From: Trypanosoma brucei
Taxonomy: Eukaryota
Direction: 5' to 3'
DNA length: 64,000 bases
NCBI GenBank assembly: GCA_000002445.1
Contig: CP000067.1
Location: 1,526,433 to 1,590,432 of the forward strand
Positions 12,001 to 18,000 of this stretch are shown here, in pieces. The position numbers are program-made. The first letter of the stretch is position 1. The number at the start of each line of letters is the position of its first letter.

Positions 12001-15000
12001 TGTAAGTCAGTTAGTGCTTCACGAGTTTCAGCGGACTATTCGTGATCCAATAGGGAATCAGAGGTGTACCATTGCAAATTCTCTCCACTTTTAAAAGTCC
12101 AGCTAAATTGTTAGACCTGTGCAGCCTTTTTGAGCAGTTTCAGCGTTTTTTTGTTTTTTGTGCCTACAGTAATCTAGCAGGAGTCCAAGCTTTGAAAATT
12201 TTCTGTCAAAAGTATTATATTGTTGCCCACAAGTGTTGGACATTATCACTATGTCCAGTGAGAAGAAATTAGATATGACATCACAGTTACACAATCCACT
12301 CCTCATGCTTTTGCTTCTTTGTATTTTTCTTCAAATCCAAACATTTGTATATGCCATCAGATTAAAAAAATAGTTTCCATTATAACCATATATGCAGTAG
12401 AACATATGCAGTTTTGAGTAAAATACTGGGCATTATTTCGAGTTTACACTGTGATCATCCGTCGAAACTTACAATGATACGCAAATAAAGTGCATACATT
12501 TGAAGATAGCTCGGCTTCACATTCTATACGTCGAATGCCTCGCTTTGTACAGCGACATTCATAGCACCAAAAAAAAGTTGGTGTTGTTCTTTTTCAAATG
12601 ATTCCTTCTATTTTAGACTTAAGTGCTTGCATTCCGTCACTTGTACCATTTCTTTTTAATGTTAATCTATTTCTTAGTACTTTTCTTCTATTTTATAGAT
12701 GCTGAGAGCTGTAAGGGAGATGAAATACCTTTTAAAAATGACGTTTCAAGTTCATTTGGTGCCTGCTACGCCGGATGAAATAGTAGTCTCGCAAGCCGCC
12801 GCATCTCTGATCTACTATATATGCGATTTGGGGTCAATTTTCTGCTTTGTGTAGTTGAATATAGGAAAAGACAAAACCCTCGATACCATCTAATAACATC
12901 ACCAACTTACTACAGCACAAGAGTTACCAAGGCTAAACTTTCCAACAATATGTTATGATGCAATAACACTTTATTTTTGTTTCCCTTCTCTTTTATTGTG
13001 GTTTCTTTTGCTTGCTGTTATTTTTTAAAAATTGGTGCTTGTTTGACAACACTCCACACGTTACACCCGCATCATCAACAACTTACATTGTCAGTGCTTT
13101 CGATGTTTACTTGTCTCAAGAGGAAGAAGAACTTTTAGACAAAATTTTCGGACGTTACCAGTTGAATACACTTCATTACATTGTGGTGTGCAAATAATAG
13201 AACATAGAAAAGAAAAATCAAATTGGTAAAACAGTTATTGAGAGCATATCAGTGGCTTTTATTTTACGTAACTTCTACTTGCGCTGCTTATTTATATTAT
13301 TTGTGGAAAATCATTTACTCTTTATATTGGACTCTGTCTGATTCTTACTCTCCACTTCATCATCTCCTTGTGTATAGTGATACCATCATCATTTGTTTGA
13401 AATTGCGCATTTTTAATATCCACTCCTTTATTTGTTTTGCTCATTCCGTTTAATAATAATTCTCTTTCCCTCTCCCACAAAGTGTTGCCTTCACCATCGC
13501 ACCCCCTGAGGTTGCACCATTGCAATTTTTTAAGAGATATTTTGACGAAATTCGTTCAGCACTACAACTATTACTATATTATTAGTATATACACACACAA
13601 AACGCTTATCTATCATTATTATTGAAACGTTAATTATTGTCAATAAAATAAAAGGACAGTTAAAATTAAAATACCGCCTATTTCAAATACCAGATCACTA
13701 CACTGCTTTAGACTTGTATGAAATTATTATGCATATTTTACTAAATTTTATGTTTTTCAAAAATTTACCAATTTTCAAATTTTCATGCAAAAGTATTAAA
13801 ATATACCAAATTTATAATATTTTGGCAAATTCTGTAAAGAAAGTAAATTTTATGAACTACATAAAATTGATCTAAAATCATTAAAATAATAAATCCCTAC
13901 AGAACTAATATAAGAAAAAATTCGAGAAAAATTTTCTATTTGAGAGAATACTACCATTTCGGTATTTCTTCTTTTATGTAACATATTCACCGTGTTTACC
14001 CTTTCCAAATGCACAATTCTGTTTGTCATCTACTTTTTCATTTTCCCAACTCGTTTTATCACTATGTTGCTTACAGTTAGAGTGTGTTGCCCCCTCTGGT
14101 TGCTCTTCTGCTCCTGCTGCTGTATTTTCTGCTCCTGGTTTATGTTTGCATTCCCCCTTTCCATCTTTTTCTTCCAATTTTCAACCTTTGTTTGTGCAGA
14201 TCGTGTTTGTTTTGTTGTTATTTCAGCCTGTTGTAGGAAGTTCTGCTGAATCTTCCCGTGTGTTCGTTGAAGAGAAGCCCCATAAGAAGCGCCGATCTGA
14301 AATTCACAAAAGCAGAATTACGGCGCCGTGTGACGATACGGGGCTGAAAACAAATATGAGAAAAATTTAAGTGAAGATGGACGGCTGTTTAATAAGGGAC
14401 AGGATGTGCAGAAAAAACGTTGTGTTGCTAAAAAATTTTTTTAAAATATTGTAAAAAACAATAAAAAAAATTAAAAAGATATCAAAAATTTTAAATAGTT
14501 AAAAAACTAAGCACCACTGCAGAACTGGGGTCAAATAAGGGTTAGGTTCCGCATAAAAAAAGAGCTCGTGCATCAGTTAAAAAAAATCTATAGTCGTGAC
14601 GTTTCACAACTGGTAAAAAAAAACTTATTAGTAAGAGGAGAAATAACCCTAACCTTAACCCGCTCAAGAATTAGTTTATTTTTTATTTGAGCGTAACTTT
14701 TGCCCTCTGCGGCGACATTCTCAAAAAACGAAAAAAACGAAGGTAAATAATTTTTAAAAATGCGCGAGATTTTATAAAATCCGCCAAAAGACACAAAAAA
14801 TGGAAAATCGATCTAAAAAATTGAAAAAATTTAACCTTCAAGCATTTTTTCTAAAGAGATAACCCTAAAAATCCTAAAAAAATTCAACAGGAAAAGAAAA
14901 AAATTTTTGGTCGCCAGAAAATATTTTTTTTCAGAATCAGATTTTTTACAAACACACACTTTTTTGGTGAAATTAGGTGTTAAAATATATCAAATAGCAA

Positions 15001-18000
15001 AATTTTAGCAAAGGAAAAATTTTAAAGGGGAAGAGATTAAAACAGCAAGGCCACAAATGCAGCAGAAACCACGCTGAGGGCGAAGTGTTTGTTTACTAGA
15101 ATAGAAGAATCTTTGCATTTGTCCTCAATCCAACCACAAACTTTTGCCTTTCCTGTTGGAGGAGTGCCTGGCACTACCTCGCATGTCTCCTTAGTTGTAT
15201 GGCTAGAGCAATTTACTCCAGGTTTGGCTCCCTCTGTTGGCTTTTCTGCCCCTTTTACCGCTTCCTTCTTGCCTTCCTCACTCAAGGTGCACTTTTTTCC
15301 CTCGTCGCCTTTTGGGTTGAAAACGCAGCCCTGGGGTTTTAGCTTATCACACTCATCTTGTTTGTCCTCGCCTTTGGTATTGCATTCTTTTTCCGCTTCC
15401 TGTTGTTTTAGTTTACTTGTGCTTATCTGCTTGGCCGCTGCTTTCGTTGCGCCTGTTGTGGCTTCCTTTGGGAGTGTCGTTATGTGTAGAGCCGCTGCCA
15501 ATGTCTCGTTGAGAGCTTCTATCATTGCCTCGGCTGTGGCTTGTTCTTGTGCTCTTTGTTCGTAATGATCTGCTGCTGTTGCAGCCTTTTCGAGTTCGCC
15601 GATCCACGCTGGCAAAGCTATCGTGTTTGCTGCGGATGTGAATGTAGCGCAGGCCGTGGCACCTGCCGCGTGGTTTCCATCGCAATTGCCGGCTGCGCTG
15701 CCGCTTGCTGGGTTGCCTATATAACCTATGTTTCCGTTGGTGCCTTTTGGTTCATATATGAGCGCAGTTAGGGCCCTTGTTAGCTCCTTCAGCGTTTCCG
15801 CCGTCGCTGATTTTACTGTGGGTGCTTCGGTCCTGCATTTTGTTTTGATTGCCTCCCAGTCGGCTATGTCTGTACCCGTGTTCCAGGCTGCCTGCGTCTC
15901 TGTGGCCGTTGTATAGCACCCTGTGTTGCTGCCGGCGCTCCCGGAGCCTGAGCTGCAGAGACAAGCTATGGTCGCAGCTACTGAAATTGTTGCCGACGCT
16001 CCCGCCGAGTTGGCAGTCCCACAGTGTTGCTGGCGGTCGTTGCCTGCGCCGAGGAGTTTTGGGACCCTGTCTGTGCCCGCGCCTCCGTACGCTGCCTTTT
16101 TCAGGGCTGTGGTTATTTTCTCTTTATCTGCAGTGTCTCCGCCATCACGTGCGAGCTTATTTGCTGCCGCCAGCAATTTCTCCACAGTCTTATTCACGTT
16201 TCGGCGGAGGCTACCTTTGTCGCTGGCTAAGCTTCTGAGTGCCGTCTGCGTTTCTTCTGGCAGGGTTTCTAGGTAGGCGGCGGCATCTATACATTGGAGT
16301 CGAGCGCTGCCGCGGCACTTTTAGTCGAGTTCCCCTTCCGCCGGCTTGGTTTGCCGCTCTGCCTTTGCGGTATCTGCAAGCTGCTGAATTGCTGGGTAAT
16401 GAACTAGTATTAAATTTATGTGGCCTGCGATCTTTGCCGCTTCCTTGGCGCCCTGCCCTGGTTGCGGCAGGTCTTTGACATTATCTGAAGAAACAACTGC
16501 TCTGCACAGCAAGCCGAACTCTCTCCTGTTTATGCCCTTGTCTGGCCCGTTGGCAGAGCCACGGTTTGTTGACAGCTGCAAGAGGGCTGCTACCTCTACG
16601 GCTAAAGCAAGCATTGTTCTGGCTACATCTCCTGGCGTCATTTTGCCGTGTGGCGTTGTTGTCGTGGATGGCCTAAGGCTGCTGCTTGTGTGCTGTTGCT
16701 GTGCTTCTCGGTAGTGGCTCCCCTTTGATTCTTTGAGGTTGTGAAGTTTGTGTAATTCCGCCTTCAGTTTTGTGGCTATCGCTCTGCAGATTACCTTTGC
16801 CGTCCTTGTTGCTTGTGCCGTGTCCCTGTCTTCTTTTGTTGTCCTTAGCTTTCCTTCTCCAACAGGTGTCAGTGGCAAACTCTGTGTATTCGAATCCTGT
16901 ACTGCTATTTCCTTTTACTGGAGTTAAGAAAAACCAATTCAGGCATATACAATATGATATTTTATTCACATTTTCTTAGGTGAGTTTTTAAAATCTAGTA
17001 TTTATGAACATCCTGACACCATTTTTAAATAAAAAAAATGTGTTTTCGACTTGCAAAGAAAGCCAAATGATATTTTAGGTAAATGATTTTGCATAAATGA
17101 AGAAAAGTGACTCACACATTAGGAAATGTAAATTATCACTATAATTCGCTGTATTTGGCATGTATTTTAACTTGTAAAAAGGTTGGCTTCACCATAGAAA
17201 TCCATGCAAAATATGACATAAATTTTGTTTTCGACAGATTTCCACACTCATTTGAAGTTTATAGGATACTATATCTATCACCCGCATATCTTCCAAGGTC
17301 TGATTCTGTGATTCTTTAAAATATCACACATATTTTGTGTTTGAAAAATCATGTTGTATGGATTCTAATCTGTTATATCTACTACTAACTGCTTTGAGGT
17401 ACATCCAGCTCTAGCAAAACTGTGAGGTCTGTGCTTAGATCGTATTCGCGGGTTGGTTGGGATTTCTGCAGGACCTGCTTGCTTTTATGTTGTTCCAGCT
17501 TAAGGTTTGATAGCTTAGGACTTATTTTCGACTCCTTTGGCTTCTAGCACATCTTTTTCGCTTACTATAAATGAATATGCCCTTGTTTATACTATTAAGC
17601 ACTCCATCGACGAAAGTCGTTAATGGTTTGCTGCCATACCAGTATAAAATTGGTTAGGTTTAGCTGGAAATTATGTTTAATTCACAAAACTCTGTAAATG
17701 ATATATATATATATATGTTATCAGAAGTAGTTTCTGCGTTTTAATTTTTTTATCTTTGTGGAAATCTATTAGTAGTGGTAGTTTTCAAACCATTCTTAAT
17801 AATATTATATTGATTCACACGATTATTAGTCATTATTTATATATCTGATAATAAGACTTCAGCATTACATTACACATATACAAAACCTTTATCCTCACCC
17901 ATATTCGGTTCATTTAAATATCTGTTTATTAAAATCTGGCATAAGAATACCTATTACAGTTATAACTACCTTTTCTGTAGGAGTACGCATTCATTTTTTA

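What the first reader, a model, noticed from the sequence alone, without database searches (positions are those of the whole stretch)
14400..16641. Telomere-like CCCTAA/TTAGGG relic block directly downstream of an array VSG, duplicated about 41 kb away
The A-rich 560-bp block 3' of the VSG at 15037 contains degenerate telomeric hexamers, with TTAGGG predominantly on the VSG coding strand as at a true telomere. It is paralogous to the block at 55320-55900 3' of the VSG at 55958. The two VSGs also share their last ~100 coding nt (KAVCGWIE[D/N]KC..DSS[I/F]L..KFALSVVSAAF.ALLF) and 3'UTR, but have unrelated N-domains. This suggests a telomere-derived 3' module (a former telomeric or expression-site VSG end) propagated by segmental duplication or gene conversion. 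Such shared 3' homology is exactly what drives VSG conversion boundaries.
Basis: partly seen in the sequence, partly recalled or inferred. Interest (0 to 1): 0.65.

Follow-up and report, generated by a model that had tools for sequence, protein, structure and literature searches.

The report
Telomere-type VSG tail stranded inside array
Two silent trypanosome coat-protein (VSG) pseudogenes inside a gene array carry, just downstream, the T-rich, TTAGGG-sprinkled flank known from VSGs next to chromosome ends; the two copies are real but old relatives, probably relics of telomeric VSG ends, which is interesting but not surprising.

Summary
Block A (14493-14976) and block B (55327-55887) lie just 3' of two minus-strand VSG pseudogenes.

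- **Each other's only match.** Neither block matches anything else significantly in the window. Identity is about 68% with many indels, and the alignment score has z = 10.8 against shuffles.
- **Outliers.** They are the only two of 14 or more VSG 3' flanks that are T-rich on the VSG sense strand.
- **Telomere-like words.** They are 50-fold or more enriched (0 of 2000 shuffles reach the count), mostly in telomeric orientation, and sit at homologous positions in both blocks.

TTAGGG-like sequences 3' of the gene are a published hallmark of telomere-proximal VSGs and serve as telomere-healing seeds. Block length fits the 200-1590 nt gap between VSG and telomere in expression sites.

This is not a segmental duplication. 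Only the 3' module is shared: the last ~105 coding nt, the 3'UTR and the block. N-domains and outer flanks are unrelated.

New anatomy: each block runs straight into a 5'-truncated VSG remnant, not into the usual 70-bp repeat.

Most likely these are internalised telomeric VSG ends. I could not compare them with real T. brucei telomeres, because no such DNA is reachable with these tools. Modest interest.

The parts
15037..16641 (-). VSG_A pseudogene: B-type N-domain plus C-terminal domain, 534 codons, with one in-frame stop at 16321-16323. The tail reads ...KVCGWIEDKCKDSSILVNKHFALSVVSAAFVALLF*.
   Evidence: Translation. Pfam VSG_B 3.7e-34 and Trypan_glycop_C 1.3e-24.
14977..15036 (-). 3'UTR of VSG_A, including the exact 16-mer (14977-14992; TGATATATTTTAACAC on the sense strand).
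   Evidence: Nearly identical to the VSG_B 3'UTR in the alignment.
14493..14976 (-). Block A, a telomere-proximal-type 3' flank. The first ~450 nt below the 16-mer are 42% T on the VSG sense strand. TTAGGG-like islands at 14860-14868 and 14644-14661 (sense strand GGGTTAAGGTTAGGGTTA). One inverted island at 14538-14546. Conserved distal box at about 14527-14580 (sense strand TGATGCAC..GCTCTTTTTTTATGCGGAACCTAACCCTTATTTGACCCC).
14420..14492 (.). A-rich low-complexity junction between block A and the truncated VSG remnant. It is shared with the copy at 63950-64000 but not with block B.
13566..14419 (-). 5'-truncated VSG remnant: C-terminal domain plus about 60 degenerate codons of the N-domain end. 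It has its own degenerate 16-mer (13793-13808), followed by a 70-bp repeat (13566-13629). No 70-bp repeat separates it from VSG_A.
   Evidence: Three-frame translation. Pfam Trypan_glycop_C 1.5e-11. Repeat family D2. Collinear with 63377-63997.
55958..57563 (-). VSG_B pseudogene: B-type N-domain plus C-terminal domain. ATG at 57563, two frameshifts, and an in-frame stop in ...CGWIENKC*DSSFLLNRKFALSVVSAAFMALLF*.
   Evidence: Pfam VSG_B 1.4e-35 and Trypan_glycop_C 1.3e-26.
55888..55957 (-). 3'UTR of VSG_B, with the exact 16-mer at 55888-55903.
55327..55887 (-). Block B, the paralogue of block A. The first ~450 nt below the 16-mer are 52% T on the sense strand. TTAGGG-like islands at 55771-55781, 55745-55754, 55584-55593, 55490-55497 and 55479-55486. 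Inverted island at 55371-55379. A 27-bp unit repeated 2.2 times at 55726-55784.
54188..55326 (-). Neighbour of block B on its distal side. 54886-55326 is unassigned sequence, possibly degenerate N-domain. 54470-54885 is a complete VSG C-terminal domain remnant. Its own 16-mer is at 54448-54463 and a 70-bp repeat at 54188-54251. There is no full N-domain and no 70-bp repeat between it and VSG_B.
   Evidence: Pfam Trypan_glycop_C 4.3e-12, positions 1-103 of 104. tblastx finds nothing for 54880-55340.
18355..18418 (-). Single 70-bp repeat about 1.7 kb upstream of VSG_A: the ordinary array-type upstream boundary.
   Evidence: Repeat family D2.
59174..59237 (-). Single 70-bp repeat about 1.6 kb upstream of VSG_B.
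   Evidence: Repeat family D2.
63377..64000 (-). Paralogue of the remnant next to block A, truncated at the same point and again running into A-rich sequence at the window edge. A third composite unit may continue beyond the window.

Best explanation
Blocks A and B are two old, diverged copies of the kind of sequence that follows telomere-proximal VSGs. On the VSG sense strand this is a T-rich stretch of a few hundred bases, sprinkled with degenerate T2AG3 motifs in the orientation of a real telomere.

**The shared module.** Each block, the last ~105 coding nt (GPI-signal tail) and the 3'UTR together form a common 3' module attached to unrelated B-type N-domains. This is what is expected if different VSGs were once copied into the same sort of telomeric site, where the resident 3' end and downstream flank are retained.

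**Where they sit now.** Both modules lie inside a subtelomeric array. Each is joined directly to a VSG that has lost its 5' two-thirds, where ordinary units have a 70-bp repeat about 230 bp downstream.

**Inferred origin.** A telomeric VSG end was internalised by recombination. Two routes fit:
- (i) Repair of an array break, copied from a telomeric donor. It starts in the upstream 70-bp repeat, runs through the VSG and its telomere-proximal flank, and is sealed by microhomology inside the resident VSG.
- (ii) An eroded VSG-bearing chromosome end captures a distal array segment by break-induced replication.

**What it does today.** The blocks lie beyond the polyadenylation region and the genes are pseudogenes, so they are most likely relics. 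They could still supply about 0.5 kb of downstream homology with telomeric sites. They could also act as latent seeds for de novo telomere addition after a distal break.

**Shown:** paralogy, enrichment, orientation, outlier status and junction anatomy. **Inferred:** telomeric ancestry, the route of internalisation and any present-day function.
For: **Enrichment.** Telomere-like words are enriched 50-fold or more over composition-matched shuffles, with the G-strand on the VSG sense strand. Three islands sit at aligned positions in both blocks, so they were inherited, not independently acquired.

**Paralogy.** A and B are each other's only significant match. The score has z = 10.8 against shuffles and is not shared with the eight other flanks.

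**Outlier status.** Only these two of 14 or more VSG 3' flanks have positive AT skew and many telomere words.

**Missing 70-bp repeat.** Ordinary flanks have one about 230 bp below the 16-mer. Blocks A and B instead abut remnants that contain only a C-terminal domain.

**Extent of sharing.** Only the 3' module is shared. N-domains are unrelated. The A-to-B tail plus UTR scores 106, against 32 and 25.5 with the other CGWIE-tail VSG.

**Literature.**
- TTAGGG-like repeats are used as the mark of telomere-proximal and minichromosomal VSGs (PMC3708902).
- The gap between VSG and telomere repeats is 200-1590 nt in 17 expression-site clones (PMC2567434).
- A T2AG3-like tract downstream of VSG221 is where de novo telomeres are seeded (PMC1807955; PMC3610638).
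- RAP1 binds T- and G/T-rich sequence downstream of expression-site VSGs. Weak subtelomeric RAP1 peaks were read as residual expression-site sequence left by recombination (PMC10686619).
Against: - No direct comparison with a genuine telomeric VSG flank was possible, so homology to telomeric flanks is not demonstrated.
- No tandem (TTAGGG)n or 29-bp-type array survives. The longest run is 17 nt with one mismatch, and there is no distal increase in hexamer density.
- The most distal motif is inverted.
- Both blocks end at homologous positions although their distal neighbours differ. This needs either a fixed flank-to-telomere boundary or later conversion of the neighbours.
- Ordinary flanks also carry one conserved AACCCTAA next to the 70-bp repeat. 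A single telomere-like word is therefore not specific to telomeric ancestry.
- Upstream of both genes is a single array-type 70-bp repeat. There is no long expression-site tract and there are no ESAGs.
Confidence: 0.6

Rival explanations
1. The blocks are a second, minor class of array intergenic spacer that was never telomeric. The T2AG3-like words are short conserved motifs kept for a local reason, such as binding of TRF or RAP1, base J, transcription termination, or a pyrimidine tract guiding VSG polyadenylation. They did not descend from a telomere.
For: - Ordinary flanks also keep one AACCCTAA at a fixed place next to the 70-bp repeat.
- The blocks hold no tandem telomere tract.
- The islands are positionally conserved at about 68% overall identity, which could reflect constraint.
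- The upstream context is array-type.
Against: - Only 2 of 14 or more flanks are of this class, and both replace the 70-bp repeat with a truncated VSG. That looks like a rearrangement scar and not a standard spacer.
- The literature ties this kind of flank to telomere-proximal VSGs.
- Both genes are pseudogenes, so selection on their 3' processing is unlikely.
Confidence: 0.2
2. The junctions are assembly artefacts. Telomeric VSG ends were wrongly joined to array sequence in a repeat-rich subtelomere assembly.
For: - Subtelomeric VSG arrays are hard to assemble.
- Each block ends abruptly at a truncated VSG.
Against: - Two such joins lie in one 64-kb window with no residual (TTAGGG)n at the joins.
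- The truncated remnant next to block A has a diverged paralogue (62% identity) truncated at the same point. The truncation is therefore old and real.
- Both genes carry pseudogene lesions typical of array copies.
Confidence: 0.05
3. A recent segmental duplication or gene conversion copied one block to the other site 41 kb away.
For: The blocks are collinear and are each other's best match.
Against: - Identity is about 68% with large indels.
- Nothing outside 14527-15141 and 55361-56062 is shared.
- The distal remnants belong to different C-terminal-domain families.
Confidence: 0.03
4. The hexamers and the similarity are chance products of A-rich, low-complexity DNA.
For: - The window-wide CCCTAA count equals expectation.
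- The blocks are low in complexity.
Against: - None of 2000 dinucleotide shuffles reaches the observed word counts.
- The alignment score has z = 10.8.
- The conserved non-repetitive boxes, such as TCCGCATAAAAAAAGAGC..TGCATCA and CAGAATCAGATTTTTTACAA, are not poly-A.
Confidence: 0.01

Closest known systems
TTAGGG-like (T2AG3-like) sequence 3' of telomere-proximal T. brucei VSGs (Aline & Stuart 1989, as cited by Hall et al. 2013, PMC3708902; VSG221 flank AJ271641 nt 211-322 in Glover et al. 2007, PMC1807955)
   Same: - Lies immediately downstream of the VSG 3'UTR.
- Carries degenerate T2AG3 motifs with the G-strand on the VSG sense strand.
- Length is within the 200-1590 nt range from VSG to telomere.
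- T-rich on the sense strand.
   Different: - Internal in the array, not followed by a 29-bp or (TTAGGG)n tract.
- Motifs are scattered islands of 8-17 nt. The VSG221 flank instead has a compact 106-bp tract.
- The block ends at a truncated VSG.
- Direct sequence homology to known telomeric flanks could not be tested here.
Ordinary array VSG cassette: 70-bp repeat, co-transposed region, VSG, 3'UTR with 16-mer, next 70-bp repeat
   Same: - VSG_A and VSG_B each have a single upstream 70-bp repeat 1.6-1.7 kb away.
- Both have a canonical 16-mer and pseudogene lesions like their neighbours.
   Different: - The downstream flank is T-rich on the sense strand (ordinary flanks are purine-rich there) and lacks the 70-bp repeat at about 230 bp.
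- It shows no similarity to the eight ordinary flanks.
Interstitial telomeric sequences marking ancestral chromosome ends or fusions (for example the human 2q13 fusion site)
   Same: Telomere-derived motifs at a non-terminal site, possibly marking a former chromosome end.
   Different: - No tandem array.
- No head-to-head arrangement. The distal neighbour is a VSG in the same orientation, so an end-to-end fusion is not supported.
'3' donation' and telomere conversion in VSG switching: the expression site's resident C-terminal end is retained, and telomeric donors are copied to the chromosome end by break-induced replication (PMC3708902; PMC3610638)
   Same: Unrelated N-domains joined to a common tail, UTR and downstream flank, with the homology starting about 105 nt before the stop codon.
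   Different: - The products sit in a silent array, not in an expression site.
- Transfer from telomere to array is inferred, not observed.

Membership tests
Telomere-proximal VSG 3' flank (TTAGGG-like class) | Starts directly after the VSG 3'UTR and 16-mer | tested here: met
   Blocks begin right below the exact 16-mers at 14977 and 55888.
Telomere-proximal VSG 3' flank (TTAGGG-like class) | Degenerate T2AG3 repeats above chance, with the G-strand on the VSG sense strand | tested here: met
   7-mers: 8 observed against 0.15 expected, and 17 against 0.39. None of 2000 shuffles reaches these. The strand split for 6-mers is 11:4 and 22:4.
Telomere-proximal VSG 3' flank (TTAGGG-like class) | Length within the observed range from VSG to telomere repeats (200-1590 nt) | tested here: met
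   484 and 561 bp, against the range in PMC2567434.
Telomere-proximal VSG 3' flank (TTAGGG-like class) | Continues into tandem telomere-derived or (TTAGGG)n repeats at a chromosome end | tested here: not met
   No tandem hexamer array. Each block is followed by a truncated VSG and further array units. At most it is an internalised relic, not a current telomeric flank.
Telomere-proximal VSG 3' flank (TTAGGG-like class) | Sequence homology to flanks of known telomeric VSGs (expression-site clones, AJ271641, minichromosomes) | not testable with these tools
   No T. brucei DNA is reachable. Exact-protein look-ups, the protein search and the metagenome scans were all empty or nearly so.
Ordinary array VSG 3' flank | 70-bp repeat about 230 bp below the 16-mer, purine-rich on the sense strand, alignable to the family consensus | tested here: not met
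   No member of repeat family D2 lies in either block. AT skew is +0.20 and +0.38, against -0.07 to -0.28 for ordinary flanks. Alignment scores with ordinary flanks are 25 or less.
Interstitial telomeric sequence of the fusion type | Tandem TTAGGG array, head-to-head with a CCCTAA array, flanked by inverted subtelomeres | tested here: not met
   There is only one inverted 9-mer per block, and the distal VSG remnant has the same orientation.
T. brucei VSG (genes VSG_A and VSG_B) | N-terminal VSG domain, C-terminal domain and GPI signal | tested here: met
   Pfam VSG_B plus Trypan_glycop_C for both. Both are pseudogenes.

The most novel reading that the evidence does not exclude
Each block marks a fossil chromosome terminus. 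A VSG-bearing telomere eroded down to its telomere-proximal flank and was rescued by capturing, through microhomology-primed break-induced replication, a distal piece of another VSG array that started inside a VSG. If so, subtelomeric VSG arrays grow by repeated terminal additions. The composite signature of telomere-type flank plus 5'-truncated VSG would let one count and date those events genome-wide. The same relics could also work in reverse, as built-in telomere-healing seeds that turn an internal VSG into a telomeric one after a distal break.
Probability: 0.2. Interest if true: 0.6.

Novelty: new variant of a known kind. Interest (0 to 1): 0.35.

Why it matters
How the huge silent VSG archive is built and reshuffled is central to antigenic variation. 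Traffic from array to telomere is well documented. Traffic in the other direction, or the conversion of former chromosome ends into array interior, is much less so.

A recognisable scar, made of a telomere-type 3' flank fused to a 5'-truncated VSG, would give a simple sequence signature. It could be used to count such events across strains and to date them.

It would also flag array VSGs that have unusually long downstream homology with expression sites, or that carry latent telomere seeds.

As it stands the finding is a plausible footprint of known recombination processes, not a new mechanism.

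Tried and rejected
**Fetching T. brucei telomeric flanks for direct comparison.**
- Exact-product look-ups for three window ORFs and one database hit found nothing.
- A protein search with the C-terminal domain returned a single unannotated hit.
- Two metagenome scans, one with a block motif and one with the 3'UTR, found nothing.
- The phage, plasmid, E. coli and prokaryote collections are irrelevant and were not queried.

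**Literature on internal telomere-like sequence in VSG arrays.**
- Eight of the ten searches returned nothing on this point. The other two led to the supporting papers.
- Marcello & Barry 2007, Cross et al. 2014 and Horn et al. 2000 are not held.

**Homology beyond the distal end of the blocks.** What looked like a match by eye (14291-14342 with 55259-55309) scores 16, against a shuffle maximum of 17. Rejected.

**Per-segment identity.** A global alignment with cheap gaps gave inflated, uninformative values and was discarded.

**Retroposon origin.** The blocks show no blastn hit to the ingi element at 23-28.5 kb.

**Structured RNA.** Rfam finds nothing in the window.

**Perfect TAGGGTTAGGG at 47619.** It is not conserved in its two paralogues, so it is treated as chance.

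**Head-to-head telomere fusion.** Rejected because the distal VSG remnant has the same orientation.

Full report
**Setting**

The window is a Trypanosoma brucei-type subtelomeric VSG array.
- The conserved VSG 3'UTR 16-mer occurs ten times (2 or fewer mismatches), always on the + strand, against 0.06 expected. All VSGs are therefore on the minus strand.
- Pfam finds A- or B-type VSG N-domains and VSG C-terminal domains in the long minus-strand ORFs. It also finds an ingi-type retroelement (RT, RNase H, zinc finger) on the + strand at about 23.6-28.3 kb.
- A 64-nt repeat family with 12 copies is the 70-bp repeat. In ordinary units it lies about 230 bp below the previous gene's 16-mer.

**Checking the observation**

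*Hexamers.*
- Window-wide, CCCTAA is at chance: 23 observed, 22.0 expected.
- Inside the two blocks, telomere-derived words are far above composition-matched expectation. C-strand 7-mers on the + strand number 8 against 0.15 in A and 17 against 0.39 in B. None of 2000 dinucleotide-preserving shuffles reaches these counts.
- The G-strand lies predominantly on the VSG coding strand, as at a telomere: 11 to 4 in A and 22 to 4 in B for 6-mers.
- The minority is a single inverted AGGGTTAGG at the distal end of each block.

*Paralogy.*
- The blocks are each other's only significant blastn match in the window and are collinear. 14493-14687 matches 55327-55521 at 68%. 14785-14954 matches 55692-55864 at 67%.
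- The local alignment score is 64.5, against 24.9 +/- 3.7 for shuffles. Eight other VSG 3' flanks score 25 or less.
- Conserved non-repetitive boxes, and three telomere-like islands at aligned positions, show that the common ancestor already carried the motifs.

*Outlier status.* Among 14 or more VSG 3' flanks, only these two are A-rich on the + strand, that is T-rich on the sense strand. Their AT skew is +0.20 and +0.38, against -0.07 to -0.28 for the others. Only these two hold many telomere words.

**What the two genes are**

- VSG_A (15037-16641) has a B-type N-domain and a C-terminal domain, with one in-frame stop.
- VSG_B (55958-57563) is also B-type. It has two frameshifts and a stop.
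- BLASTP aligns them only over the C-terminal domain (42% over 112 aa), becoming nearly identical over the last ~35 residues.
- At the DNA level the shared module runs from about 105 nt before the stop codon, through the 3'UTR, to the distal end of the block (14527-15141 with 55361-56062). Nothing else within about 15 kb on either side is shared.
- A third VSG with a CGWIEDKCK tail (about 35150-35260) has an ordinary 70-bp-repeat flank and no block. Its tail plus UTR is much less similar to A or B (scores 32 and 25.5) than A and B are to each other (106).
- So A and B share a specific 3' module, not merely a C-terminal-domain type. Tail type alone does not predict the block.

**New anatomy: the distal junctions**

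Ordinary units go from the 16-mer to a 70-bp repeat within about 230 bp. Blocks A and B go straight into a VSG that lacks most of its N-domain.

- *Below block A.* A 73-bp A-rich stretch is followed by a remnant holding about 60 degenerate N-domain codons and a C-terminal domain. The remnant has its own degenerate 16-mer (13793) and a 70-bp repeat (13566).
- *Its paralogue.* This remnant has a 62%-identical paralogue at 63377-63997, truncated at the same point and again running into A-rich sequence at the window edge. The truncation is therefore old, and a third composite may lie just outside the window.
- *Below block B.* There are 440 bp of unassigned sequence and then a complete C-terminal domain of a different family, with its own 16-mer (54448) and 70-bp repeat (54188).
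- *Not a simple insertion.* The missing 5' halves are not upstream of VSG_A or VSG_B, where complete neighbouring units lie.
- *No homology past the blocks.* None extends beyond their distal ends.

**Comparison with what is known**

- Hertz-Fowler et al. (PMC2567434) measured 200-1590 nt between the VSG and the telomere repeats in 17 expression-site clones. The blocks, at 484 and 561 bp, fit.
- Glover et al. 2007 (PMC1807955) describe a T2AG3-like tract downstream of telomeric VSG221 (AJ271641 nt 211-322). All mapped de novo telomere additions after telomere deletion occurred within it. This was confirmed again in PMC3610638.
- Cestari and colleagues (PMC10686619) report RAP1 on T- and G/T-rich sequence downstream of expression-site VSGs. 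They attribute weak subtelomeric peaks to residual expression-site sequence left by recombination.
- I found no paper describing such flanks behind internal array VSGs. Key archive papers were not available, however, so I cannot claim this is undescribed.

**Most likely explanation**

The blocks are internalised relics of telomere-proximal VSG 3' flanks.
- Unrelated N-domains on a common tail, UTR and flank is the pattern left when different VSGs are copied into a telomeric site whose resident 3' end is retained.
- The junction with a truncated VSG, in the same orientation and without a 70-bp repeat, is a rearrangement scar.
- Two routes fit. One is repair of an array break from a telomeric donor, starting in the upstream 70-bp repeat and sealed by microhomology in the resident VSG. 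The other is capture of a distal array segment by an eroded VSG-bearing chromosome end through break-induced replication. Both use processes documented in T. brucei (PMC3610638).
- I cannot distinguish the two routes. The window does not settle whether A and B are two independent events or one old event followed by conversion of the neighbours.
- That both blocks end at homologous positions favours either a fixed flank-to-telomere boundary or a single origin.
- Present-day function is probably nil, since these are pseudogenes and the blocks lie beyond the poly(A) region. Possible residual roles are extended downstream homology with telomeric sites and latent telomere seeding. Both are inferences.

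**Limits**

- No genuine T. brucei telomeric flank could be retrieved. Homology to telomeric flanks rests on shared character and literature description, not on an alignment.
- No tandem telomere tract survives.
- Ordinary flanks also keep a single AACCCTAA beside the 70-bp repeat. One motif alone is therefore not diagnostic.
- A never-telomeric spacer class with conserved short motifs remains a real rival (about 0.2). Assembly chimeras are unlikely but need long reads to exclude.

**Verdict**

- Observation: confirmed.
- Interpretation: partly supported. A telomere-type 3' module is supported. A duplication in the sense of a recent segmental copy is not.
- Novelty: a new variant (internal, scar-bearing) of a known kind of sequence.
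- Interest: modest, 0.35. It would rise if a genome-wide survey shows that these composites mark former chromosome ends.

Noticed in passing
window 5491-5497, 30322-30328, 44975-44983, 59262-59269 (consensus in alignment A2): Ordinary VSG 3' flanks share a conserved (A)ACCCTAA word right next to the TAA-rich end of the 70-bp repeat, about 140-175 bp below the 16-mer. Even standard array flanks therefore carry one telomere-like heptamer in the same orientation.
   Followed up: partly
window 63377-64000: A 62%-identical paralogue of the truncated VSG remnant next to block A. It is truncated at the same point and again enters A-rich sequence exactly at the window edge. A third block-bearing unit may lie just beyond the window.
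   Followed up: partly
window about 35150-35260: A third VSG with a CGWIEDKCK tail, a degenerate GPI signal and a degenerate 16-mer. It is followed by an ordinary 70-bp-repeat flank (34736-34799) and no telomere-like block.
   Followed up: yes
window 38356-39795 (-): An intact 479-codon ORF in a VSG position, with a cysteine-rich, hydrophobic C-terminus. It has no Pfam hit even at E = 1, so it may be an atypical or very divergent VSG-like gene. The VSG-like ORFs at 42224-43282 and 52223-53095 also escape the Pfam VSG models.
   Followed up: partly
window about 23579-28277 (+): An ingi-type non-LTR retroelement lies on the strand opposite to all the VSGs. It has separate RT, RNase H and C2H2 zinc-finger ORFs, so it is interrupted by frameshifts.
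   Followed up: partly
window 61318-62187 (-): A 289-aa ORF with a weak Galactosyl_T match (5e-07), embedded between VSG units. It is probably a subtelomeric glycosyltransferase fragment.
   Followed up: no
window 55726-55784: A 27-bp unit (AAAATCGAAAAAAAAAAACCTAACCCT) is repeated 2.2 times inside block B. This is a short telomere-derived mini-repeat with no counterpart in block A.
   Followed up: no
window 47619-47629: A perfect 11-nt TAGGGTTAGGG on the + strand, upstream of a VSG. Its two paralogues (40.8 kb and 44.1 kb) read TAGGGGAGTGG and CAGGGAAGGGC, so this is most likely a chance variant of a G-rich box.
   Followed up: yes
window 21297-21640 and 58317-58651: A 77%-identical, ~345-bp non-coding stretch is shared between two inter-VSG regions. 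It is the strongest match between the neighbourhoods of A and B apart from the 3' module. Its nature is unknown.
   Followed up: no
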